Part shown: piece by piece, positions 21,932 to 40,257 of the stretch
How the letters are laid out: each line of letters starts with the position of its first letter
How positions within the stretch are numbered: position 1 is the stretch's first letter
DNA from: Candidatus Altiarchaeota archaeon
GTDB lineage: Archaea; SpSt-1190
Assembly: GCA_018220955.1 (NCBI GenBank)
Contig: JAAOXV010000013.1
Span: 1-40,257, forward strand
Reading direction: 5' to 3'
Length of the DNA: 40,257 nt
Notes under the pieces: generated by a model
Seen by the model: only the letters and a program-made list of their open reading frames with translations
Databases searched by the model: none
Told to the model about the DNA's origin: nothing
Translations under genes and position numbers: made by a program

Positions 21932-23968
21932 TTAAACTGTTTTGGTGTATGGTGAGTTTAACACCTGCCGAATCTTCTCAGCCTTCTTAGCCCCTACTCC
22001 TTCCACTGACTTAAGCTCATCTATGCTGGCTGCAAACACAGAGGCCGGACTGCCGAACTTATCGAACAATCGCCTGACCAGAGTCAGGTTTATTCCTGGC
22101 AGGGAGGCAACAAGTCTTTCCTGCATTTTGTCGAGTGTGGCTGCTTTGGCCATCTTGATACTTGGTTTTCTAGCTTCACCATGCTCACGCTTTGACAAAG
22201 CTTCCAAAAATCTAGCTGTGTCTTCTGGACTAGCTGTGAAAACAACCGGTATCTCCCAGTTGGATATCAAGCTAGCTAGTGCGCCGCGAATTGCGTTTGG
22301 ATGAACGGCCCGATGGCCGAACAGATTGTAACCTTCTATCAAGATGACTGGCTTATCATATGCCTCCTTTAGCTCAGCCAGCTGTTGGAACAAGCGTCCA
22401 TCAACAATACTATTTACAAAGTCAGCAGCCGTCTTTCGCTCCACCACCATCCTATCGCTTATTACAAAATCACCAATCGTGATTCGTTTTATCTTGACAG
22501 ACTTCAGCAACCTGGCGACTTCGAGCTCTCTATCATCAGCTATTATGAATGGACCTTTGTCACTAAAAGAACCTAATGTGATTTGAGATTTTGCTGATGG
22601 CTTGACCCCAGCTATCGCGGATGCCATTCGCTTTTCTTTGGCCCTAGTAGCATAGAAGAGCGCATCTTCCCTTGTTCCGATTGTGGCTAGTATCAGGACT
22701 TTTCCGCCTTTCCTGAGCCTACCCTTTCTTTGAATATGCCGAATTGCACTGGGAACAGGTTCGTAAAAAACAACTCGGTCGACCGACGGAATATCAATTC
22801 CTTCTTCTGCTACTGATGTGGCTATAAGCACAGAGAACTCATGATTTCTGAAAGCTTCTATAGTTTGTTTTTGCTTTTTCTGTGTCATTCCACCCTTTTG
22901 TCCACCAAATCGTTTTGCACTTATGCCGGCCTGGTCTAGTAGCTCAATCAGCTCTTCCACTTGGTCTCTATAATGTGCAAACAGGATGGCCTGTTTAATG
23001 CCAGTCAGGTATTTGACCACCAGTTTTGTTTTTGGGTGCGCCAACTTAATCGGGGTTGGCAATCTACCAGCAAGCTCCCTGCCTGCCCGGGTTTTGTCCT
23101 TGCGCATCCGGTCGATAAACCGACCATATGCCTGCATACTTTGTGTTCCCAACAGCTCGAGCGCGTGCAGACCCTTGATACTACCAGCCAGCGCGCTCAT
23201 GGCATTCGGGTCGTCTGTTACTTTGTCCTGTAGGCCAAGCAAGGTCTTTTTTCTAATCTTGGATAGGTCTGCACTTTTCAGATAACCTGTTTTTTTCAAA
23301 AATCGTAAGTATTCTCCAACTACCTTTTTAGCGTTTGAAATAACAAGCTTGTACTCAGCTGGTAAGCTTGTCTTTATCCATTGAATCTGTTTTTCCTTTA
23401 CATAAGGTCTAACATCTGAGTCATTCTCTGATCGGGTCTCGATTTGCTTGATATAAAGATTGTCGACTATCTCTTGTATCCCAGCTGTGTCAGTGCCAGG
23501 TGATGCTGTCAATGCCAAAATCAGTGGTGATTTTGATTGTTCAGTAAATTTTCTAGCAAGATAAACATAAGCATAGTTACCTGTTGCCCTGTGGGCCTCG
23601 TCAAAAACAATTAGTGAAAAATTATTTAGCTTGACTGAATCCCTCAACAAATCACTCTGCACGCTCTGAGGTGTGGCAACAAACCAGTTGCTGTTTTTCC
23701 ACAATCCCTTTCTATGTTCAGGTGAGGTTGTCCCAAGTATGGTGACTGGCTCAATTCCTGTCTGCGCTTTGATGGTTTTTGCATGTTGCTCGACCAGCGG
23801 CTTGGTTGGTGCGAGAATCAAAATCTTCCCAGTTTTTTGTCGAATCAACCCGAGCATCACTGCTATGAGGGTCTTCCCTAGTCCGGTCGGCAAAACCACC
23901 AGTGTGTTAGCCCTTACGCATTCTGCAAGAATTTTTTCTTGATAAAGTCGAGGTTTTGTGCTAATCAC
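21932..23968 (-). CDS. hef: Hef: DEAH helicase fused to ERCC4 nuclease and HhH
   Basis: LPTGLGKT, DEAH, TASPG, ATSVAEEGIDIP, ERKTAADF, C-terminal HhH. Confidence 0.95.
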   Translation of the reverse strand: MISTKPRLYQEKILAECVRANTLVVLPTGLGKTLIAVMLGLIRQKTGKILILAPTKPLVEQHAKTIKAQTGIEPVTILGTTSPEHRKGLWKNSNWFVATPQSVQSDLLRDSVKLNNFSLIVFDEAHRATGNYAYVYLARKFTEQSKSPLILALTASPGTDTAGIQEIVDNLYIKQIETRSENDSDVRPYVKEKQIQWIKTSLPAEYKLVISNAKKVVGEYLRFLKKTGYLKSADLSKIRKKTLLGLQDKVTDDPNAMSALAGSIKGLHALELLGTQSMQAYGRFIDRMRKDKTRAGRELAGRLPTPIKLAHPKTKLVVKYLTGIKQAILFAHYRDQVEELIELLDQAGISAKRFGGQKGGMTQKKQKQTIEAFRNHEFSVLIATSVAEEGIDIPSVDRVVFYEPVPSAIRHIQRKGRLRKGGKVLILATIGTREDALFYATRAKEKRMASAIAGVKPSAKSQITLGSFSDKGPFIIADDRELEVARLLKSVKIKRITIGDFVISDRMVVERKTAADFVNSIVDGRLFQQLAELKEAYDKPVILIEGYNLFGHRAVHPNAIRGALASLISNWEIPVVFTASPEDTARFLEALSKREHGEARKPSIKMAKAATLDKMQERLVASLPGINLTLVRRLFDKFGSPASVFAASIDELKSVEGVGAKKAEKIRQVLNSPYTKTV

Positions 23969-31146: not shown

Positions 31147-32247
31147 ATGAAGAGTCTCGTAAAGTCTGCAAAAACAAGAGCAAAAAAGACAAAGGATACT
31201 GAATTCGAGGAGTTTCTTGCTTCTCATGTTCCGGCCATAACAGTGGTCGGTGTTGGTGGAGCTGGGGGTAATACAATAACCCGGCTTATTGAAATGGGTG
31301 TTGAGGGGCCGAACCTGATAGCTGTGAACACAGATGCTCAGGATTTGACCAAAATTAAAGCACACTCAAAAATTTTGATTGGTCGAGAGATTACTCGCGG
31401 CCTTGGAGCTGGCTCTGATGTATCTGTTGGTGAGCAGGCAGCCAGAGAGGATGAGTCTAATCTGAAAAAGGCAATAGCTGACTCAGATTTGATATTTGTT
31501 ACCTGTGGTCTTGGTGGAGGAACTGGGTCGGGAGCGGCTCCTGTCGCAGCTGAGATAGCAAAGAAGTCTGGCGCGCTCACGATTGGCGTGGTGACATTAC
31601 CATTCGAGAACGAAGGGATGTTGAGATGGGAAAACGCACGTTACGGACTCGACCGACTACAAAAGCATGTGGATGCCTTGATTATTATACCAAACCAGAA
31701 GCTGTTGGACATAGTTCCAGATTTGCCGCTCGTGACAGCATTCAGAGTGGCGGATGAGGTATTATCAAATGCAGTTCGGTCAATCACCCGAGCTGTTACG
31801 AGTCAAGGACTGGTAAATGTGGATTTTGCTGACCTTCGAGCTATTATGAAGGATGCTGGTGCTGCACTGATTGGTGTTGGTGAAAGCGACTCAGAAAAGA
31901 GAGCAGATGAGGCAGTAATGCGGGCAATAAACAATCCATTACTTGATATAGACATAACTGGTTCAAAGGGCGCGCTCATATATATTGAGGGTGGAAAAGA
32001 CCTGAAGCTGGAAGAGGCATATCACATAATCGACCTTATCTCAGAGCATTTGAGCAAGGATGCCAAGCTTATCTGGGGAGTCGGATTGCCAGATGAAACA
32101 CTCGGTAACACACTTAGGATACTCGTAATTGTGACAGGTGCAAATGTCAAGGAATTTTATTACCCAGATAAAGAGATAATTGAGAAGCGTGAGAAAGACA
32201 GTATGCAAGACAAGTTTGGGATAGAATTCATTGAGGTAGAAGAGTAA
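31147..32247 (+). CDS. ftsZ: Cell division protein FtsZ
   Basis: VGVGGAGGN, NTDAQ, GLGGGTGSG, NVDFAD. Confidence 0.98.
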   Translation: MKSLVKSAKTRAKKTKDTEFEEFLASHVPAITVVGVGGAGGNTITRLIEMGVEGPNLIAVNTDAQDLTKIKAHSKILIGREITRGLGAGSDVSVGEQAAREDESNLKKAIADSDLIFVTCGLGGGTGSGAAPVAAEIAKKSGALTIGVVTLPFENEGMLRWENARYGLDRLQKHVDALIIIPNQKLLDIVPDLPLVTAFRVADEVLSNAVRSITRAVTSQGLVNVDFADLRAIMKDAGAALIGVGESDSEKRADEAVMRAINNPLLDIDITGSKGALIYIEGGKDLKLEEAYHIIDLISEHLSKDAKLIWGVGLPDETLGNTLRILVIVTGANVKEFYYPDKEIIEKREKDSMQDKFGIEFIEVEE

Positions 32248-33357: not shown

Positions 33358-34683
33358 GTGGTAAAAACCAAAACTGAGGGGCAAGAGCATAAAGCCAGTT
33401 CAAAAAAAACATCTAAAGATAAGGCAATTGCTCAAAAAGAAAAGAACGATTTGAAAAGCAATGTGGAACTTGGAAGAGAATTGGACTTATACATAACAAG
33501 CGAGCTTGTAGGACAGGGATTGCCATTACTCACTTCTAAAGGAGCTACCTTCAAAAGAGAAATTGAACGTTTTGTAATGGATGAAGAGATAGCAAGAGGG
33601 CATTTGCACACATCAACACCTATCATGGCGAAAAGTGATTTGTACAAAATATCAGGTCATTGGGCTCACTATAAGGACTCTATGTTCTGTGTGAAAATGA
33701 ATGATGAAACCTATGCCCTTAGACCTATGGCGTGTCCTTTTCATTTTTTGTTATATAAAAGAAAACCTAGAACATACAAGGAACTTCCATTAAAATACGC
33801 CGAAATAGCAACTCTTTTTAGAAATGAAAAATCAGGAGAACTTCGAGGTCTGGATAGGGTAAGACAATTTAATCTGGCTGATGCACATATCATCTGCAGA
33901 CCAGACCAGCTAGAAGAAGAGTTCAAGGAAGTTCTAAATTTAATTAATTATATTATGGAAACATTAAACATCACTGATATTTGGTACCGATTTTCCAAAT
34001 GGGATCCGAAAGACAAGGAAAAGTACATAGATGATCCTGCGGCCTGGGACGAATCACAAAAAATGATGAAATCAATTTTGGATAACTTAAAAATAAAATA
34101 TATTGAGGCTGATGGAGAAGCCGCGTTTTATGGACCTAAATTGGATATCCAATATAGGGATATTTATGAAAGAGAAAATACTTTGATAACAGTTCAGATT
34201 GATTTTGCTCTTCCATCTAGGTTTAACTTAACTTATGTAGATAAATCTGGAGATGAAAAAATACCTGTAGTGATTCACAGGTCATCTTCTGGCGCTACTG
34301 AAAGAGTTATGGCATATTTGTTGGAAAAAACTCAGGGGAAACTGCCTACATGGTTATCTCCAATACAAGCAATTGTTTTGCCAATTAGTGAGAAGAACGA
34401 AGCTTATTCAACAAAAGTTTTCCAAGAACTAAAAAAACGCAAGATCAGAGCTGAATTAGACTTTAGCCAAGAAACTATCGGTAAAAAAATAAGAAATGCT
34501 CAGCTAAACAAAATTAATTATATGATTATACTTGGTGATAAAGAACAAGAACAAGAACTTATTTCTGTTAGACGTAGAGATGGAAAAATTTACCAAGCTG
34601 TCAAGTTGAATGATTTTATCACAAGAGTTAGTGAAGAAATAAAAGAAAGAAAGGCAGAGCTTCATTACTCGCAACCGTTATAG
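33358..34683 (+). CDS. thrS: Threonyl-tRNA synthetase, bacterial-like catalytic and anticodon domains, no editing domain
   Basis: SGHW, LRPMACP, FRNEKSGEL.GL.RVR, DAH, AFYGPK, QIDF, IHR, LPTWLSPIQ. Confidence 0.93.
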   Translation: MVKTKTEGQEHKASSKKTSKDKAIAQKEKNDLKSNVELGRELDLYITSELVGQGLPLLTSKGATFKREIERFVMDEEIARGHLHTSTPIMAKSDLYKISGHWAHYKDSMFCVKMNDETYALRPMACPFHFLLYKRKPRTYKELPLKYAEIATLFRNEKSGELRGLDRVRQFNLADAHIICRPDQLEEEFKEVLNLINYIMETLNITDIWYRFSKWDPKDKEKYIDDPAAWDESQKMMKSILDNLKIKYIEADGEAAFYGPKLDIQYRDIYERENTLITVQIDFALPSRFNLTYVDKSGDEKIPVVIHRSSSGATERVMAYLLEKTQGKLPTWLSPIQAIVLPISEKNEAYSTKVFQELKKRKIRAELDFSQETIGKKIRNAQLNKINYMIILGDKEQEQELISVRRRDGKIYQAVKLNDFITRVSEEIKERKAELHYSQPL

Positions 34684-34955: not shown

Positions 34956-36062
34956 ATGAAAGAGTTTTATAGCCAGTCATTTAATGATGATGTGAGTCAG
35001 CTTAAGGCAATTGGACTAGTGGTTTCTAATCTTGTTGGTATCGGACTTATACTTCTACCATACCTGTTCCAACAGTCAGGACTTTTCCCGGCCTTACTTA
35101 TTATGTCGGCGGTTGCGATATTGCTCAATATTTTTAGCTATGTGTTGCTTGATTTGATAGACACAAAAGGAATGTTGGCTAATATAGAAGCAAAGCTCAA
35201 GTACAAACAGCTCGTACCGCTTTCACTCTTGCTTGTCTCAGTCGGTGCAATGGCCTCATACATTTTTGCATCTGGACAACAACTCTTTGCTTGGTTGAAT
35301 ATCGATCCGCATTATGGTAGCGCCCTGTTTTTTGTTTTGGCGGCTCTGTTGATACTCTGGGATTTCGGGCTTTCAGTTGAGATGTCGATGAATTTGGGAC
35401 TTTTACTGATGTTGGCACTGCTTGTGTCGATGGGAGTCAGCACCGGGCTTTCAGTGTGTCAGAACTGCATCTTTGGCACAGAGTTCAACCCAATCCTACT
35501 TATTTCTGTGTCTGCATTTGCATTATTTGGGCACTTTGCAATGCCACAAGTCATCAAGCTAGCCGGTAGTAAGGAAGCGGCAAAACAGGCCTTCTTTTCT
35601 GGATTTTTCCTAGCATTCATATTTTATGTTCTTTATGGTACACTTATCAGTACGGTTGCAATAGTGGAACCAGTCAGCACAGCCAGTCTTGCACTTATTT
35701 TCCCGCCAGCACTTGCTGCACTGATATCTTTGACAGCCTTGCTGGCATTTTATACTTCATTTATCGGTATTGGTGTCTCGACCGTCCACTTAATCAGAGA
35801 TGAAATGAAAATGCCGAAAAAAGCATCAGTCATACTTGTCTTGCTATTGCCAGCATTGCTCTATATATCTGTTAGAGAATATGCGCTCTTATCAATTATT
35901 GAACTGGTTGGAAAGTTCGGTGGCGGCGGGGTTTTGTTGTTTTCTGCCTTGGTCTGTTATGCACATTCAAAATCAGATACAGAAAAAAGCATTCCAAGTA
36001 TTGTTTCAAAAACTTTGTTCTTTTTGTTTTTAACTGCAGCTCTATGTGCGTTCATATTTTGA
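34956..36062 (+). CDS. Amino acid permease (Trp/Tyr permease or AAAP-like)
   Basis: About 11 TMs; NLVGIGLILLPY, FALFGH..MP, YTSFIGIG. Confidence 0.82.
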   Translation: MKEFYSQSFNDDVSQLKAIGLVVSNLVGIGLILLPYLFQQSGLFPALLIMSAVAILLNIFSYVLLDLIDTKGMLANIEAKLKYKQLVPLSLLLVSVGAMASYIFASGQQLFAWLNIDPHYGSALFFVLAALLILWDFGLSVEMSMNLGLLLMLALLVSMGVSTGLSVCQNCIFGTEFNPILLISVSAFALFGHFAMPQVIKLAGSKEAAKQAFFSGFFLAFIFYVLYGTLISTVAIVEPVSTASLALIFPPALAALISLTALLAFYTSFIGIGVSTVHLIRDEMKMPKKASVILVLLLPALLYISVREYALLSIIELVGKFGGGGVLLFSALVCYAHSKSDTEKSIPSIVSKTLFFLFLTAALCAFIF

Positions 36063-36792
36063 TGACCTCTATTCCCACAAGTTCAGCTAGCTTAAGCACT
36101 TTTTGTCTATCTTGACTTTTCAGTCCTTTCCATTCGATTGCGAGCTTTTCTGGTCTTGGGACTGTCCGGTCAATCGCCTGTTCTAACATAGCTTGGTCAA
36201 ACGAGCCTATCCGATAGTCTGGGCACAGGTGTCCATAATGCATACCAGCTAAGACTTGTTTAGTGAATTTTGGTGCATAATGTGGACCGCCCACACCGAT
36301 AAGAGATTCTCCAACTAGCTCGGTGTCAAGCAAATGAACTATGGTGTCAGCGGCAGCTTTTAGTGCTCGCTGGTCCTTCCACTGTTTTTCTGTTGAACCA
36401 ACTTCAATAAACACGATTGGTAGTTCAAAACTAGGACCATGATGCGTTACCTCTAGACTAACCTCATAGCTTAGGGATTGACTTGTTTGTATTTTACTGA
36501 ATTTTCTGATAGCTTCGCTTACATACAAAGCAGGCGAGATGCTTAGTGTTTTGTCATTTCCACCAAAATCCGCAGTCCCCCAGTTTCCTGGTGAGTGGGC
36601 TGTTAAGCTTGGTCGTTCAGAAACACTCTTATGTGAGCTGGCCACCAGTATCAAATCCGCAGTTTCTTTTTCAAGCTCGGTCAAATCAACTATGCTTGAT
36701 TCAAACATTTTGACCTTTGTTCTCCCGGCCAGCTCTTGCTCAATTCCTTGACTTGCAAGGTTTCCTGAACTCCCTACCACTAATTTTTTCAC
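36052..36792 (-). CDS. dtdA: D-aminoacyl-tRNA deacylase (archaeal DTD2)
   Basis: HKS, LTAHSPGN, EVTHHGP, FIEVGS, GGPHYAP. Confidence 0.93.
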   Translation of the reverse strand: MKKLVVGSSGNLASQGIEQELAGRTKVKMFESSIVDLTELEKETADLILVASSHKSVSERPSLTAHSPGNWGTADFGGNDKTLSISPALYVSEAIRKFSKIQTSQSLSYEVSLEVTHHGPSFELPIVFIEVGSTEKQWKDQRALKAAADTIVHLLDTELVGESLIGVGGPHYAPKFTKQVLAGMHYGHLCPDYRIGSFDQAMLEQAIDRTVPRPEKLAIEWKGLKSQDRQKVLKLAELVGIEVIKI

Positions 36793-36840: not shown

Positions 36841-38238
36841 GTGAAAATTAGTTCTGTTTCGCCGTTTGTCTGGGAGATTCAACCAGAGCAATCTATGCAT
36901 GTGCCAGTTAGAGTATATGCAAATAAGTCTCAGCTTGAGCAAATGAAATTAGACCGAACCTTCAAACAAGCCATGAACACTGCTTCGCTTGAGTCTGTAG
37001 AAAGTCCTGTGTTGGTTATGCCTGATGGGCATGAAGGATATGGATTTCCGATAGGCGGAGTTGCTGCGTTTCCACAAGACAATGGTTTGGTAAGTCCTGG
37101 TGGAATCGGGTATGATATTAACTGCGGCGTTCGACTCTTATTGACTGAGCTGACTCTTGATCAGATAAAGCCAGAGATTAGTAAGCTGACAGACCAGATG
37201 TTTTTAGCTGTTCCAAGTGGGCTTGGCTCAAAATCTCGGCTTAGGTTAAAAAAAGAGGAGCTGACTGAAATAGCAGCATCAGGTATCAAATGGGCGATAA
37301 ACAAAGGTTATGCTAGTAAACAGGATGCACAAAGAACAGAAGAGTTTGGCTCGATGAAGGCAGACCCTGGATACTTGAGTGAACGGGCAGTCCAGCGTGG
37401 ACTTGGTCAGATTGGTACACTTGGTGCTGGTAACCACTTTCTTGAGATACAACTAGTGGAAAAGCTGTTTGACATAAAAATTGCAGATGCTTTTGGACTT
37501 GAACAAGGAAAAATCGTGATTATGGTTCACACTGGTTCAAGAGGATTTGGTCATCAGATTGCTAGTGATTATATCAAAACCATGATAGCTGCATCAAAAA
37601 AACAAGGGATAAGATTAGCTAGCAAGGAGTTGGCTGCGGCCAGACTTGACACAGATGAGGCGCACAGATATCTTGAATCCATGAAATGCGCAGTAAACTT
37701 TGCGTTTGTCAATAGACAGATGATTTCCTATCGGATTGGCGAGCTGTTCAACAAATTCTTTGGAACCAAGCTGAGCTTGTTGTATGATGTGGCTCACAAT
37801 ATTGGAAAGTTCGAGAAACACCAGGGCAAGAAGCTGTTTGTTCATAGAAAAGGAGCCACACGAGCATTTGGTCCTGGGAGAACAGAGTTGCCCTTTGAGT
37901 TTAGCAAGACCGGTCAGCCAGTGATAATTCCAGGTTCAATGGGGACCGCGAGCTATGTGATGGCAGGCTGTGGTGCGAGCCAGACTTTTGAGTCAAGCTG
38001 TCATGGAGCTGGTCGAGTTCTGAGTAGATCGGCTGCTAGGAAAAAATTAGCTGGAATCAATATCATGAAACAGCTTGGTCAGAAAGGCATTTTGGTCAGG
38101 TCAAAGTCAATGAAGGTTCTGGCAGAAGAAGCACCTATGGCATACAAGGACATTGATGCAGTGATTGATGTAATAGACAAGACAGGCATTTCTTCAACAG
38201 TCTCTAGAAACACTCCTATAAGCGTAGTTAAGGGGTAG
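36841..38238 (+). CDS. rtcB: RNA ligase RtcB
   Basis: MPDGHEGYGFPIG, DINCG, GNHFLE, HTGSRG, HRKGAT, PGSMG, HGAGR. Confidence 0.97.
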   Translation: MKISSVSPFVWEIQPEQSMHVPVRVYANKSQLEQMKLDRTFKQAMNTASLESVESPVLVMPDGHEGYGFPIGGVAAFPQDNGLVSPGGIGYDINCGVRLLLTELTLDQIKPEISKLTDQMFLAVPSGLGSKSRLRLKKEELTEIAASGIKWAINKGYASKQDAQRTEEFGSMKADPGYLSERAVQRGLGQIGTLGAGNHFLEIQLVEKLFDIKIADAFGLEQGKIVIMVHTGSRGFGHQIASDYIKTMIAASKKQGIRLASKELAAARLDTDEAHRYLESMKCAVNFAFVNRQMISYRIGELFNKFFGTKLSLLYDVAHNIGKFEKHQGKKLFVHRKGATRAFGPGRTELPFEFSKTGQPVIIPGSMGTASYVMAGCGASQTFESSCHGAGRVLSRSAARKKLAGINIMKQLGQKGILVRSKSMKVLAEEAPMAYKDIDAVIDVIDKTGISSTVSRNTPISVVKG

Positions 38239-38400: not shown

Positions 38401-38437
38401 TTCGAAACTTACTTTAATAGTGATTTTTTATGTTTTT

Positions 38438-40257
38438 GTGAAAAGATATGAGAGGCAGACAGGTTTGATAGACCAGAAAAAGTTGGCTGGCTCAAAAATA
38501 GTTATAGCTGGGCTTGGCGGACTTGGCTCGCCAGCTGCACTTTATTTGGCAGCTGCTGGTATTGGCGAGCTAGTTTTAATCGACCATGATAAACTGGAAG
38601 AGTCAAACTTGAACCGTCAGATTTTGTATTCAGAAAATCAAATTGGCGAGAAAAAGGTTAAGCTAGCTAAGCAAAGATTATTAGACCTTAATTCAAGCAT
38701 CAAGATAACTATACTTGACAAGATACCGGCAAAAATTGACGCAGATGTATTTCTTGATTGTCTTGATAATTGGACAGCCAGAAAGAAATTTTGGAAGCTT
38801 GCGCTTGAGTCAGGTGTCCTTGTTCACGGTGCTGTCGAACACGACAAAGGCGAGCTGGCGGTTATTATAGACAAAAAAAGTGCAGAACTGATTCTTAAAA
38901 AACAGAAGTCGGGCTGTCAGCGTATCCTTGGACCTGCAGTAGGTACAATCGGTTCAATGATGGCACTCAAGACACTTGAAATTCTTAAGAAAAAGCCGGC
39001 CAGCTCATATTTTCTTAGCTTTGATGGAAACGAGATTTCCAGATATCCAATCAATACTAGCTTAACCGTGCCAGACTGGGATATGATAATAGTCAGGTAT
39101 TCTGAAATCTGGACTAAGAGTGATATGACCAAGAGAAAAATGGAGCTAAAGCTTATCGACAATCTCAGAAAGGCAGTGCCAGATGCTAAAATCACACGAT
39201 TGCATGGTAGAATCTTGATTGAACCATATTCAGAAAACTTGCTTAAGTCAGCTGCCCAGGTCTTTGGTGTAAAATCTGTTAGTCCAGTCATCAAGCTTGG
39301 ACACGCAGAGTTTGAATCAGAGCTAACCAGACTTATTCCTATATTGGTTCCTGTCAATACCAGCTTTCGCATCACAGCCAATCGAGCTTGGAAGCAGTAT
39401 GCCACAAGCTCAACCGAGCTCAATAAACGATTTGGCCAACTTGTGCTTGAGCTTGTTGAGGGTGTAAGAGTTGATTTGACTTCAGCTCAGTTGAATTTGG
39501 AAATAGAGGTCAACAAGAACTCGGTTTTTGTTTTTACTGATAGGCGTGATGGACCGGGTGGACTTCCGCTTGGTGTTGGTGGTAAGCTACTTTTGCTCTT
39601 TTCTGGCGGACTTGATTCTCCGGTAGCTGCATACTTACTTGCAAAACGCGGAGTTGAGTCAGACCTACTGTTTTTGAATCCTCTTAGTGATGTGTTAGAA
39701 TCCAAGGTTTCTAATGTATATCATTCAATGAAATCCTGGTTGCCAGAAGCTCAGATGTTTGTGATAGACACAGCTAGCGCGGTTGACCAGATAAAACAAA
39801 AAGTGAACGAAGGCGAAAGACAAACTGTTCTGAAGAGACTATTATACCGAATAGCTGAAAGAGTTGCACTTGAACAAGGATATGACGCAATCGCTACAGG
39901 CGAGAGCCTTGGTCAAGCATCTTCACAAACACTTCAAAGCTTGGCAGTTATTCAACAAGCAATCAGCACAACTGTTATCAGACCTTTGATTGGGTTTAAC
40001 AAAAATGAGACTATTAGATTGGCAAAACAGATTGGAACCTATGATGTTAGCTCAGCTATTGAGGAGTTCTGCTCACTGGAATCCCACTCGAACGCATCAC
40101 CTGAAATAGCAGAGACGCTTAGACAGGAGACTAAGCTAGAGTTTGATATCGAACAACTTAGTGGGTCAATAAGAAAAGCAAAAAATGCCCCGGTCCCTGA
40201 CCTTAAGCCTGAAAGTATGACTGGACTTGAGCTTGTGAGGTTATGGGAAGGAATGCC
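38438..40257 (+). CDS. thiI: Fusion of ThiF/MoeB/UbaA E1-like domain and ThiI tRNA 4-thiouridine synthase (3' truncated by window)
   Basis: Hand-translated with no stop over 606 codons. E1 motifs: RYERQ, GLGGLGS, SNLNRQ, DCLDN. ThiI motifs: IIVRYSEIWTKS, VFGV, GPGGLPLG, SGGLDS, TGESLGQASSQT, RPLIG, IGTY, EEFC. Confidence 0.92.
   Translation, partial: MKRYERQTGLIDQKKLAGSKIVIAGLGGLGSPAALYLAAAGIGELVLIDHDKLEESNLNRQILYSENQIGEKKVKLAKQRLLDLNSSIKITILDKIPAKIDADVFLDCLDNWTARKKFWKLALESGVLVHGAVEHDKGELAVIIDKKSAELILKKQKSGCQRILGPAVGTIGSMMALKTLEILKKKPASSYFLSFDGNEISRYPINTSLTVPDWDMIIVRYSEIWTKSDMTKRKMELKLIDNLRKAVPDAKITRLHGRILIEPYSENLLKSAAQVFGVKSVSPVIKLGHAEFESELTRLIPILVPVNTSFRITANRAWKQYATSSTELNKRFGQLVLELVEGVRVDLTSAQLNLEIEVNKNSVFVFTDRRDGPGGLPLGVGGKLLLLFSGGLDSPVAAYLLAKRGVESDLLFLNPLSDVLESKVSNVYHSMKSWLPEAQMFVIDTASAVDQIKQKVNEGERQTVLKRLLYRIAERVALEQGYDAIATGESLGQASSQTLQSLAVIQQAISTTVIRPLIGFNKNETIRLAKQIGTYDVSSAIEEFCSLESHSNASPEIAETLRQETKLEFDIEQLSGSIRKAKNAPVPDLKPESMTGLELVRLWEGM

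What the first reader, a model, noticed from the sequence alone, without database searches (positions are those of the whole stretch)
38438..40257. In-frame E1-like (ThiF/UbaA)-ThiI fusion: candidate single-chain tRNA thiolation relay
Seen: the ORF track omits it because it runs off the window. From GTG 38438 I find no stop; codons ~1-205 are a ThiF/MoeB adenylation domain, a short linker (PINTSLTVPDW) leads to ThiI (ferredoxin-like, THUMP, PP-loop SGGLDS) from about 39083, and the frame continues past the usual ThiI end. Known: E1-like enzymes activate ubiquitin-like sulfur carriers (ThiS, MoaD, SAMP, Urm1) for thiamine, Moco and 2-thiouridine; ThiI makes s4U8 through persulfide/rhodanese or Fe-S chemistry, not classically through E1/Ubl. 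Inference: the fusion suggests s4U synthesis coupled to Ubl thiocarboxylate chemistry, or one hub serving both s4U and s2U pathways. I do not know this architecture as described, but could not search for it.
Basis: partly seen in the sequence, partly recalled or inferred. Interest (0 to 1): 0.85.

Follow-up and report, generated by a model that had tools for sequence, protein, structure and literature searches.

The report
ThiF–ThiI–rhodanese fusion for tRNA thiolation
A tiny archaeal genome joins an E1-like activating enzyme, the tRNA 4-thiouridine synthetase ThiI and a shortened rhodanese into one protein, most likely a single sulfur hub for two tRNA thiolation pathways; it is a new arrangement of well-known parts.

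Summary
From GTG 38438 the frame is open for 606 codons to the contig end. It reads ThiF (residues 9-201), ThiI ferredoxin-like, THUMP and PP-loop domains. The fusion is not an assembly artefact: uninterrupted 644-670 aa orthologues occur in five other genomes of the same family, whose named records are Candidatus Undinarchaeota, and 11 protein clusters share the architecture. These continue about 45-55 aa past the window's end into a shortened rhodanese domain with a conserved Cys loop. The architecture is therefore E1 + classical ThiI-rhodanese.

In this genome the fused E1 is the only ThiF-family hit over cut-off and there is a single ThiS-type Ubl. That Ubl lies beside an NcsA-like 2-thiolase at the start of contig C77. 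In relatives the gene order is fusion, Ubl, NcsA. One relative keeps ThiF joined directly to the mini-rhodanese, with ThiI excised.

Best reading: one rhodanese serves both the E1 (Ubl thiocarboxylate for s2U) and ThiI (s4U8). This is a new variant of a known kind. All function is inferred.

The parts
38438..40257 (+). Fused ORF ThiF-ThiI-(rhodanese), 606 codons, cut at its 3' end by the contig end; relatives are 629-670 aa
38462..39040 (+). ThiF/MoeB-type E1 adenylation domain (residues 9-201). GLGGLG, NLNRQ and DCLDN motifs are kept; both CxxC zinc motifs are absent
   Evidence: Pfam PF00899 E 2.5e-40; alignment to E. coli ThiF 1zud and MoeB 1jw9; invariant columns; the only ThiF hit over cut-off in the genome
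39041..39082 (+). Linker between the E1 and ThiI modules (residues 202-215), variable in length and sequence among relatives
   Evidence: alignment A1, columns 201-222
39083..39283 (+). ThiI N-terminal ferredoxin-like domain (residues 216-282)
   Evidence: PF22025 E 1.9e-12
39350..39541 (+). THUMP RNA-binding domain (residues 305-368)
   Evidence: PF02926 E 1.1e-07, 32.6 bits against cut-off 20.6
39572..40141 (+). ThiI PP-loop ATP pyrophosphatase domain (residues 379-568), with the SGGLDS motif at 39602-39619
   Evidence: PF02568 E 2.2e-48; invariant S389 G390 G391 D393 S394
40070..40072 (+). Cys545, the only Cys of the ThiI module. It is invariant in all 12 fused proteins and aligns with the Cys conserved in Bacillus and Pyrobaculum ThiI (the E. 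coli Cys344 position, by my recall)
40223..40255 (+). First strand (LELVRLWEGM) of the shortened rhodanese domain; the rest, with the conserved Cys loop, lies beyond the contig end
   Evidence: alignments A1, A2 and A3

Best explanation
The gene encodes a three-module sulfur hub for tRNA thiolation: an E1-like adenylyltransferase (ThiF/MoeB type), a complete classical ThiI (ferredoxin-like, THUMP, PP-loop, one catalytic Cys) and, beyond the contig end, a shortened rhodanese with an active-site Cys.

Inferred mechanism: a cysteine desulfurase (two candidates in the genome) loads a persulfide on the rhodanese Cys. That persulfide is then used in two ways. (a) As in E. coli ThiI, it passes with Cys545 to U8 adenylated by the PP-loop domain, giving s4U8. 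(b) As in Uba4/MOCS3/MoeZ, it attacks the acyl-adenylate that the E1 domain forms on the C-terminal Gly-Gly of the genome's single ThiS/SAMP2-like Ubl. This gives a thiocarboxylate that feeds the adjacent NcsA-like Fe-S PP-loop enzyme for 2-thiouridine.

In the genus that also has MoaE and MoeA, the same E1 probably also serves molybdopterin synthase.

Shown here: the architecture, conservation of motifs, gene order and gene inventory. Inferred: every catalytic step.
For: - **Fusion conserved.** 11 other clusters of 629-660 aa, 43-48% identical over 93-100% of the query, carry ThiF + ThiI Pfam domains.
- **Distribution in the family (10 genomes, own included).** Whole fused ORFs occur in 6 (own, G008, G009, G011, G013, G014). 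Contig-cut pieces occur in 2 (G010, G016). G012 has a ThiF-mini-rhodanese form, and nothing was found in G015.
- **E1 motifs.** GxGGLG, NLNRQ and DCLDN are invariant. A model of the G012 orthologue matches E. coli ThiF 1zud (Z 26.7, rmsd 2.4, 210 aligned) and MoeB 1jw9 (Z 26.7, rmsd 2.1, 208 aligned).
- **ThiI part.** TIGR00342 scores over its cut-off. PDB matches are 2c5s (E 2.6e-53) and 4kr6. Cys545 is invariant.
- **Tail is a rhodanese.** It aligns to the PF00581-bearing C-terminus of Pyrobaculum ThiI minus about 22 residues, Cys on Cys. Pfam Rhodanese gives E 0.0066, 17.3 bits, below the cut-off of 22.2. A profile against the PDB puts two named rhodaneses on top, at E 0.013-0.015. The fold search is led by rhodanese homologue 1wv9 (Z 5.4, rmsd 3.1, 58 aligned, 36% id).
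- **Own gene inventory (90% complete).** One ThiF over cut-off, one ThiS-family Ubl, no MoaE, no separate rhodanese, two class-V aminotransferases.
- **Position of the Ubl.** The Ubl (ending WSGG) and an NcsA-like gene open contig C77.
- **Gene order in relatives.** The order fusion, Ubl, NcsA on one strand is seen in G008, G013 and G016, and in G014 where NcsA lies on the next contig.
- **Natural deletion form.** G012 has ThiF joined directly to the mini-rhodanese, followed by Ubl and NcsA, at the same locus after the same permease gene. A second such protein is P0152. In a quick tree the two sit among the fused E1 domains.
- **Complex model.** The E1 domain of the G008 orthologue with its neighbouring Ubl scores 0.64 against a best control of 0.00. 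That mark was reached by 58 of 80 solved complexes and 2 of 110 mismatched pairs. The runs agree in at least 98% of contacts and the partner's pLDDT is at least 87. The Ubl tail 62-68 touches the GxGGLG and DCLDN residues. ThiF-ThiS and MoeB-MoaD complexes are solved, so this pass may only reflect likeness.
Against: - No activity is shown for any module.
- The window lacks the rhodanese tail, and it was not found elsewhere in the assembly.
- The tail's rhodanese assignment rests on marginal statistics: Pfam below cut-off, Z about 5, and Foldseek nothing at E <= 0.001.
- The E1 domain lacks both CxxC zinc motifs of E. coli ThiF/MoeB.
- The fusion is not next to Ubl-NcsA in G009, G010 and G011. 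In G010/G011 and L109 it abuts MoeA instead.
- G015 keeps Ubl-NcsA with no E1 or ThiI found (87% complete). NcsA may therefore not need the E1, or the gene lies in unassembled sequence.
- thiF-thiI tandems occur in archaea whose ThiI lacks a rhodanese. The E1-ThiI link therefore cannot be explained by a shared rhodanese everywhere.
Confidence: 0.6

Rival explanations
1. E1-dependent s4U. The E1 domain thiocarboxylates the Ubl, and that thiocarboxylate is the sulfur donor for ThiI itself, as TtuB-COSH is for TtuA. The fusion would then couple activation and use in one chain, with NcsA as a second client.
For: E1 and ThiI genes are linked well beyond this family. thiF and thiI abut or overlap on one strand in 6 genome loci titled Methanothrix, Methanosaeta or Methanotrichaceae, in 1 uncultured archaeon and in 6 metagenome loci (one of these repeats a genome locus). 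They are convergent neighbours in a Woesearchaeota MAG and divergent neighbours in G006/G007. In the two tandem loci read in full, ThiI has a CxxC motif and no rhodanese. Makarova and Koonin 2010 note E1-ThiI neighbourhood links (passages of PMC2948915). The ThiI module here has a single Cys and so needs an outside sulfur donor.
Against: The fused ThiI keeps exactly the two elements of the persulfide route: the conserved Cys, and a rhodanese with a Cys loop (mechanism from PMC5372739 passages). ThiI-mini-rhodanese proteins without any E1 exist in other archaea, for example P0126. G012 keeps E1-rhodanese after losing ThiI, so the E1 has a client other than ThiI. The loci were ranked with a query that contains ThiF, so the neighbour counts are biased upward.
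Confidence: 0.15
2. The E1 domain serves mainly other Ubl pathways, either molybdopterin synthase (a MoeB role) or protein conjugation (SAMPylation). On this reading its fusion to ThiI only reflects co-expression in a shrinking genome.
For: In G010, G011 and metagenome locus L109 the fusion is followed at once by a three-domain MoeA gene. G010 and G011 also have MoaE. NCBIfam's best E1 matches are ThiF and MoeB models, all below their cut-offs.
Against: The window's own genome has no MoaE and no MoeA hit. Only one Ubl was found, and it lies beside NcsA. No Prok-JAB deconjugase was found in 0 of 10 family genomes; PF01398 was not searched. No conserved Cys exists in the E1 domain for a thioester.
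Confidence: 0.1
3. The E1 domain is catalytically dead and serves as a dimerisation or scaffold module for ThiI.
For: Both zinc-binding CxxC pairs of E. coli ThiF/MoeB are missing and the crossover region is shortened.
Against: The nucleotide-binding and catalytic motifs are invariant across 12 proteins at 43-48% identity. The fold is complete. G012 keeps the E1 without ThiI.
Confidence: 0.05
4. The fusion is an assembly or gene-calling artefact: two genes joined by an error.
For: The window is a metagenome-type contig, and the junction could not be covered by reads.
Against: The same uninterrupted ORF occurs in five other species' genomes. Metagenome contigs add two further distinct full ORFs (L109, L111), a 3'-cut one (L112) and a near-identical copy of the G008 locus (L110), all at 43-48% identity.
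Confidence: 0.01

Closest known systems
E. coli-type ThiI (NFLD-THUMP-PP-loop-rhodanese), tRNA s4U8 synthetase
   Same: It has the same four modules in the same order, the PP-loop SGGxDS motif, the conserved catalytic Cys and a C-terminal rhodanese Cys loop. The persulfide mechanism is as described in PMC5372739 (passages). By my recall, E. coli ThiI's rhodanese also supplies sulfur to ThiS adenylated by ThiF, so the two enzymes already cooperate there as separate proteins.
   Different: Here an E1 domain is fused to the N-terminus. The rhodanese is about 22 residues shorter and scores below Pfam's cut-off. No thiazole-synthesis partner is evident: the only ThiG hit is a 59-residue partial match at 24.7 bits.
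Uba4 / MOCS3 / MoeZ: E1 adenylyltransferase with C-terminal rhodanese
   Same: An E1 and a rhodanese lie in one chain and are presumed to make a Ubl thiocarboxylate for a Ncs6/NcsA-type 2-thiolase. The G012 and P0152 forms (ThiF + mini-rhodanese, 272-292 aa) have just this layout. Uba4 6yub aligns to the E1 part (Z 23.5, rmsd 2.3, 208 aligned).
   Different: A whole ThiI (about 380 aa) lies between the E1 and the rhodanese. The rhodanese is shortened. The two domains of Uba4 were not co-aligned in the fold search.
TtuC-TtuB-TtuA(-TtuD) of Thermus thermophilus and UbaA-SAMP2-NcsA of Haloferax
   Same: These systems combine an E1, a Ubl ending in Gly-Gly and a PP-loop Fe-S 2-thiolase. Here the Ubl matches Pfam ThiS over cut-off and SAMP2 just below it. 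The thiolase matches NCBIfam NcsA best (193 bits) and then TtuA (138 bits), both below their cut-offs. One E1 serving several carriers is known for TtuC (my recall; pathway outline in PMC5372739).
   Different: In those systems the E1, the rhodanese and ThiI are separate proteins.
Unfused thiF-thiI tandem genes of Methanothrix and other archaea
   Same: The gene order is the same, E1 then ThiI, and the genes abut or overlap. In one Methanothrix locus they are followed by cysteine desulfurase and IscU genes.
   Different: They are two genes. The E1 has both CxxC pairs. The ThiI has a CxxC motif (the methanogen Fe-S type, per PMC5372739 passages) and no rhodanese.

Membership tests
ThiF/MoeB-type E1-like adenylyltransferase (PF00899) | Rossmann-type nucleotide fold with a GxGxxG loop | tested here: met
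   PF00899 E 2.5e-40; GLGGLG invariant; the orthologue model matches ThiF and MoeB at Z 26.7
ThiF/MoeB-type E1-like adenylyltransferase (PF00899) | Arg-finger motif NLxRQ and catalytic Asp motif DxxDN (the roles of these residues are my recall) | tested here: met
   N57 L58 N59 R60 Q61, D107 and D110 are invariant and align to the same motifs of E. coli ThiF and MoeB
ThiF/MoeB-type E1-like adenylyltransferase (PF00899) | Two CxxC pairs binding zinc (present in E. coli ThiF/MoeB; not universal in the family, by my recall) | tested here: not met
   There is no CxxC in the E1 part. The whole 606-aa product has three Cys
ThiF/MoeB-type E1-like adenylyltransferase (PF00899) | A Ubl substrate ending in Gly-Gly | tested here: met
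   There is one ThiS-family ORF in the genome, ending WSGG. Complex model: 0.64 against a best control of 0.00; the mark was reached by 58 of 80 solved and 2 of 110 mismatched pairs; the runs agree in at least 98% of contacts; partner pLDDT is at least 87; the pass may reflect likeness to solved complexes
ThiF/MoeB-type E1-like adenylyltransferase (PF00899) | ATP-dependent adenylation of the Ubl | not testable with these tools
   This needs an enzyme assay
ThiI, tRNA uracil 4-sulfurtransferase (TIGR00342) | Ferredoxin-like + THUMP + PP-loop domains with SGGxDS | tested here: met
   Pfam hits; TIGR00342 266.2 bits against cut-off 264.5; 2c5s E 2.6e-53
ThiI, tRNA uracil 4-sulfurtransferase (TIGR00342) | Conserved catalytic Cys after the PP-loop domain (E. 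coli Cys344) | tested here: met
   C545 is invariant in 12 of 12 fused proteins. The column is invariant across fused, Pyrobaculum and Bacillus ThiI. The equivalence to Cys344 is by recall
ThiI, tRNA uracil 4-sulfurtransferase (TIGR00342) | C-terminal rhodanese with a persulfide-carrying Cys (E. coli-type only) | tested here: inconclusive
   In the window only the first strand is present, because the contig ends. In relatives the tail aligns to the rhodanese of Pyrobaculum ThiI, but Pfam scores 17.3 bits (cut-off 22.2) and the fold Z is 5.4
Fe-S type archaeal ThiI (methanogen type) | CxxC plus a third Cys in the PP-loop domain, binding an Fe-S cluster | tested here: not met
   The ThiI module has one Cys. 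The position of CxxC reads TVLK (compare CLVC and CLIC)
Uba4/MOCS3/MoeZ-type E1-rhodanese | E1 and rhodanese in one polypeptide, with an active-site Cys loop | tested here: met
   All complete orthologues end in the Cys-loop tail. G012 and P0152 have E1 + tail only
Uba4/MOCS3/MoeZ-type E1-rhodanese | Rhodanese directly following the E1, and of full size | tested here: not met
   ThiI (about 380 aa) intervenes. The tail lacks about 22 residues

The most novel reading that the evidence does not exclude
In these archaea, and in the lineages with thiF-thiI tandem genes, the Ubl thiocarboxylate made by the E1 is the physiological sulfur donor for ThiI. That would be a third, E1/Ubl-dependent route to s4U8 beside the persulfide and Fe-S/sulfide routes, and the fusion would be its Rosetta stone.
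Probability: 0.15. Interest if true: 0.8.

Novelty: new variant of a known kind. Interest (0 to 1): 0.5.

Why it matters
How sulfur reaches tRNA in archaea is only partly known, and ThiI and the E1/Ubl relay are treated as separate routes. A conserved single chain holding E1, ThiI and the family's only rhodanese-like module argues that one persulfide carrier feeds both.

Nature has also supplied controls in close relatives: a form with ThiI excised, a locus with the whole gene absent, and unfused tandems elsewhere. This makes the question 'does s4U ever depend on an E1?' directly testable with one recombinant protein and four point or deletion mutants.

It also shows how a 0.65-Mb symbiont-sized genome compacts three sulfur-transfer functions into one gene.

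Tried and rejected
**Read support for the junction.** One run (marine sediment metagenome, share 0.07) was found. Its only laid contig covers 38358-38612, so the junction and the 3' end remain untested by reads.

**Missing C-terminus.** It was not found in the assembly: a search of the genome with P0005 found only the C45 copy. There is no sequence overlap between the end of C45 and the start of C77.

**Fold of the tail.** Foldseek on the tail model gave no match at E <= 0.001. In the VIA-align search the best Z was 5.4, under the tool's own caution line of 8. By their titles, 7 of the top 15 rows are rhodaneses or sulfurtransferases.

**Uba4 comparison.** The fold search of the G012 ThiF-mini-rhodanese model aligned only the E1 part (model residues 18-229) to Uba4, so a Uba4-like domain arrangement was not shown.

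**TcdA-like reading.** I considered an E1 acting directly on tRNA, as TcdA does. I rejected it as the weaker match: TcdA E 4e-9 against ThiF 9e-26.

**Fe-S ThiI.** Rejected, because the ThiI module has a single Cys.

**Thiamine role.** The only ThiG hit in the genome is a 59-residue partial match at 24.7 bits in a 218-aa frame, which I do not take for ThiG.

**Tree of E1 domains.** Only the quick tree finished, with SH-aLRT support and a midpoint root distorted by the long P0124 branch. I use it only as 'consistent with' a secondary loss of ThiI in G012/P0152. The rows left out were duplicate loci of the same contigs: L084-L088, L100-L102, L106, L110 and L166.

Full report
**1. What is in the sequence**

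Translation of 38438-40257 gives 606 residues with no stop. The frame is open from TTG 38336 to the last base. The window is an entire contig (C45) of a 644,673-base, 77-contig assembly rated 90.4% complete and 0.6% contaminated. The gene is therefore cut by the contig end.

Domain hits:
- Pfam: ThiF 9-201 (E 2.5e-40), ThiI_fer 216-282, THUMP 305-368, ThiI PP-loop 379-568 (E 2.2e-48).
- NCBIfam: the ThiI model TIGR00342 scores over its cut-off (266.2 against 264.5). The ThiF, MoeB and UbaA models match the N-terminus, all below their cut-offs.
- Solved structures: ThiI of B. anthracis (2c5s, E 2.6e-53) and T. maritima (4kr6) match the C-terminal two thirds. E. coli ThiF (1zud, E 9e-26) and MoeB (1jw9) match the first third. 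TcdA is far weaker, at 4e-9.

**2. The fusion is real and conserved**

A search of 5.8 billion proteins returned 11 further clusters of 629-660 aa, 43-48% identical over 93-100% of the query. All carry ThiF and ThiI Pfam domains. The next hits cover only one half, being ThiI alone or ThiF-rhodanese.

A search of 1.84 billion 50%-identity representatives found three clusters of this fused type. It also found one very divergent ThiF-ThiI fusion without a tail (P0124, 573 aa, 34% identity).

Named genome records with the full fused gene are three 'Candidatus Undinarchaeota' MAGs.

Among the 17 species genomes of the window's phylum, the fusion is confined to the window's family of 10 genomes:

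| State | Genomes |
|---|---|
| Whole fused ORF (644-670 aa; the window's own copy is 3'-cut) | own, G008, G009, G011, G013, G014 |
| Pieces cut by contig ends | G010, G016 |
| E1 + tail without ThiI | G012 |
| No E1 or ThiI found | G015 (87% complete) |

The seven genomes of the other three families have separate ThiI and ThiF genes. Metagenome contigs add two distinct full ORFs (L109, L111), a 3'-cut one (L112) and a near-identical copy of the G008 locus (L110).

**3. What lies beyond the contig end**

All complete orthologues run on for about 45-55 residues after the window's last residue. The consensus is 'VVRLWEG.P.L.KGKKY.FVCK.G...EEA.KAR..G.EAYAL'. This tail has an invariant Cys. The evidence that it is a shortened rhodanese:
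- It aligns to the C-terminal rhodanese of Pyrobaculum aerophilum ThiI and two other ThiI proteins that carry PF00581. The Cys falls on the active-loop Cys, and one gap of 22 columns accounts for the shortening.
- Pfam Rhodanese hits it at E 0.0066, 17.3 bits, below the 22.2 cut-off.
- A profile of eight tails puts two named rhodaneses on top of the PDB at E 0.013-0.015.
- An AlphaFold model (pLDDT 79.5) has a strand-strand-helix-strand-helix layout. Its best structural neighbours are rhodanese homologue TT1651 (1wv9: Z 5.4, rmsd 3.1, 58 aligned, 36% identity), 3gk5, GlpE, TSTD1 and PspE.
- Foldseek alone found nothing at E <= 0.001.

I read the tail as a shortened rhodanese, with the statistics marginal. 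The architecture is then E1 + classical (E. coli-type) ThiI-rhodanese. Other archaea have ThiI with the same short tail and no E1, for example P0126.

**4. State of the catalytic residues**

In the E1 part, GLGGLG, NLNRQ and DCLDN are invariant and align to the same motifs of E. coli ThiF and MoeB. Both CxxC pairs are missing. The window's Cys160, which aligns to the Cys in ThiF's '...NCRTAGV' (Cys184, by recall), is not conserved in the family. A model of the G012 orthologue (pLDDT 83) matches ThiF and MoeB over 208-210 residues at Z 26.7.

In the ThiI part the PP-loop SGGLDS is invariant. The module has one Cys (C545), invariant in all fused proteins and in the compared Bacillus and Pyrobaculum ThiI. 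There is no CxxC, so the methanogen-type Fe-S mechanism is excluded. The two-Cys persulfide mechanism is possible (passages of PMC5372739).

**5. Partners and context**

The own genome has:
- one ThiF hit over cut-off, which is this gene;
- one ThiS-family ORF;
- no MoaE, no MoeA and no separate rhodanese;
- two class-V aminotransferases that could be cysteine desulfurases.

The single Ubl (ending KVWSGG) is cut by the start of contig C77 and overlaps the start of a 310-aa NcsA-like PP-loop gene with CxxC motifs. NCBIfam ranks NcsA (193 bits) above TtuA (138 bits), both below their cut-offs.

In relatives:
- The order fusion, Ubl, NcsA lies on one strand in G008 (with a DUF123 gene between), G013 and G016. 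In G014 the NcsA gene is on the next contig.
- G012 has the same order with its E1-tail gene.
- The end of C45 and the start of C77 fit that order.
- The fusion is elsewhere in G009, G010 and G011.
- In G010, G011 and L109 a MoeA gene follows at once, and G010 and G011 also have MoaE.

The Ubl-NcsA pair itself is adjacent on one contig in 15 of 17 genomes of the phylum. In G014 it is split by contig ends, and in G003 the Ubl was not found with this query. No Prok-JAB hit occurs in 0 of 10 family genomes. In 8 of those 10 genomes nothing matches Pfam Rhodanese at E <= 0.01. One of the two hits is the fusion's own tail in G014, and the other is a separate 78-aa frame at a contig start in G012.

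A complex model of the E1 domain of the G008 orthologue with its neighbouring Ubl scored 0.64 against a best control of 0.00. That mark was reached by 58 of 80 solved complexes and 2 of 110 mismatched pairs. The runs agree in at least 98% of contacts and the partner's pLDDT is at least 87. The Ubl's last seven residues lie against the GxGGLG and DCLDN residues. ThiF-ThiS and MoeB-MoaD complexes are solved, so this shows likeness and does not prove binding.

**6. Natural variants**

G012 (87% complete) has, after the same permease gene and before Ubl-NcsA, a 292-aa gene in which the E1 domain runs directly into the tail. The roughly 380-residue ThiI module is missing, and no ThiI was found elsewhere in that genome. 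P0152 (272 aa) is a second such protein. In a quick tree of E1 domains these two sit among the fused sequences, which is consistent with a secondary in-frame loss of ThiI.

G015 has permease, Ubl, NcsA with nothing between, and no ThiI or ThiF over cut-off. It does have MoaE, so an E1 may lie in unassembled sequence.

Outside the family, thiF and thiI abut or overlap as two genes in six genome loci titled Methanothrix, Methanosaeta or Methanotrichaceae, in one uncultured archaeon and in six metagenome loci, one of which repeats a genome locus. The two I read in full have ThiI with CxxC and no rhodanese, and one is followed by cysteine desulfurase and IscU. A Woesearchaeota MAG has ThiI-short-tail and ThiF as convergent neighbours, and its ThiF is the closest unfused relative in the quick tree. 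These counts are biased, because the query contained ThiF.

**7. Reading**

The most economical account is a shared-rhodanese hub. The E1-rhodanese pair works like Uba4/MOCS3/MoeZ on the neighbouring Ubl for NcsA, and the ThiI-rhodanese pair works like E. coli ThiI on U8.

G012 shows that E1 + tail is kept as a unit without ThiI. ThiI + tail proteins elsewhere show the converse. In the genus with MoaE and MoeA the same E1 probably also acts as MoeB. I give this reading 0.6.

It is kept alive by the widespread thiF-thiI tandems (0.15). All catalytic steps are inferred.

**8. Known or new**

Makarova and Koonin 2010 mention gene-neighbourhood links between archaeal E1 genes and ThiI, and rhodanese-ThiI fusions (passages of PMC2948915). 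Iyer et al. 2006 mention ThiI only in passing (passage of PMC1779556).

Five full-text searches found no description of a ThiF-ThiI fusion, and none that pairs Undinarchaeota with ThiI. Supplements and InterPro could not be seen.

The proteins are in public databases. The only name shown by the search tool for a fused cluster is 'thiamine biosynthesis protein ThiI'.

I rate this a new variant of a known kind, of moderate interest.

Noticed in passing
L095:1438-2316 (G012:C33): A 292-aa gene in which the ThiF domain is joined directly to the mini-rhodanese tail, with the ThiI module excised in frame. It is followed by Ubl and NcsA. No ThiI was found in that genome (87% complete).
   Followed up: yes
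L099:497-2838 (G015:C10): The same locus (FtsX-like permease, Ubl, NcsA) with no E1/ThiI gene at all. The genome still has MoaE but no ThiF over cut-off, so this is either a real loss or an assembly gap.
   Followed up: partly
L002:2290-3561, L109:5986-7239, G010:C29:1092-: In one genus and one metagenome contig the fusion overlaps by 4 bases with a three-domain MoeA gene. Those genomes also have MoaE, so the E1 may double as MoeB there.
   Followed up: partly
L068:5977-9431 (Methanothrix chromosome record): A cluster of thiF (242 aa, two CxxC pairs), an overlapping thiI (379 aa, CLVC), a cysteine desulfurase and IscU. Similar thiF-thiI tandems occur in 5 other Methanotrichaceae-type loci and in several metagenome contigs.
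   Followed up: partly
P0122 (499 aa): A protein like P0008 but lacking the ferredoxin-like/THUMP part of ThiI: the E1 runs into the PP-loop domain and tail. It is a single sequence and may be an assembly artefact.
   Followed up: no
P0124 (573 aa): A very divergent second ThiF-ThiI fusion (34% identity) without the rhodanese tail.
   Followed up: partly
L004:7901-8326 (-): A DUF123 gene sits on the opposite strand between the fusion and the Ubl in G008.
   Followed up: no
window 38413-38419: A TTTAATA stretch lies about 20 bases before GTG 38438. It could be an archaeal TATA box for a leaderless or near-leaderless transcript. This comes from reading the sequence only; no tool test was made.
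   Followed up: no
window 36841-38238 (+), 36052-36792 (-), 33358-34683 (+), 31147-32247 (+), 21932-23968 (-): The neighbours are ordinary archaeal housekeeping genes: RtcB tRNA ligase, D-aminoacyl-tRNA deacylase, a class II aminoacyl-tRNA synthetase, FtsZ and a Hef-type helicase-ERCC4 nuclease. ARAGORN found no tRNA gene in the window.
   Followed up: partly
G012:C19:45-209: A separate Rhodanese hit (30.5 bits) in a 78-aa frame at a contig start, in the genome whose E1 gene lost ThiI. Not examined.
   Followed up: no
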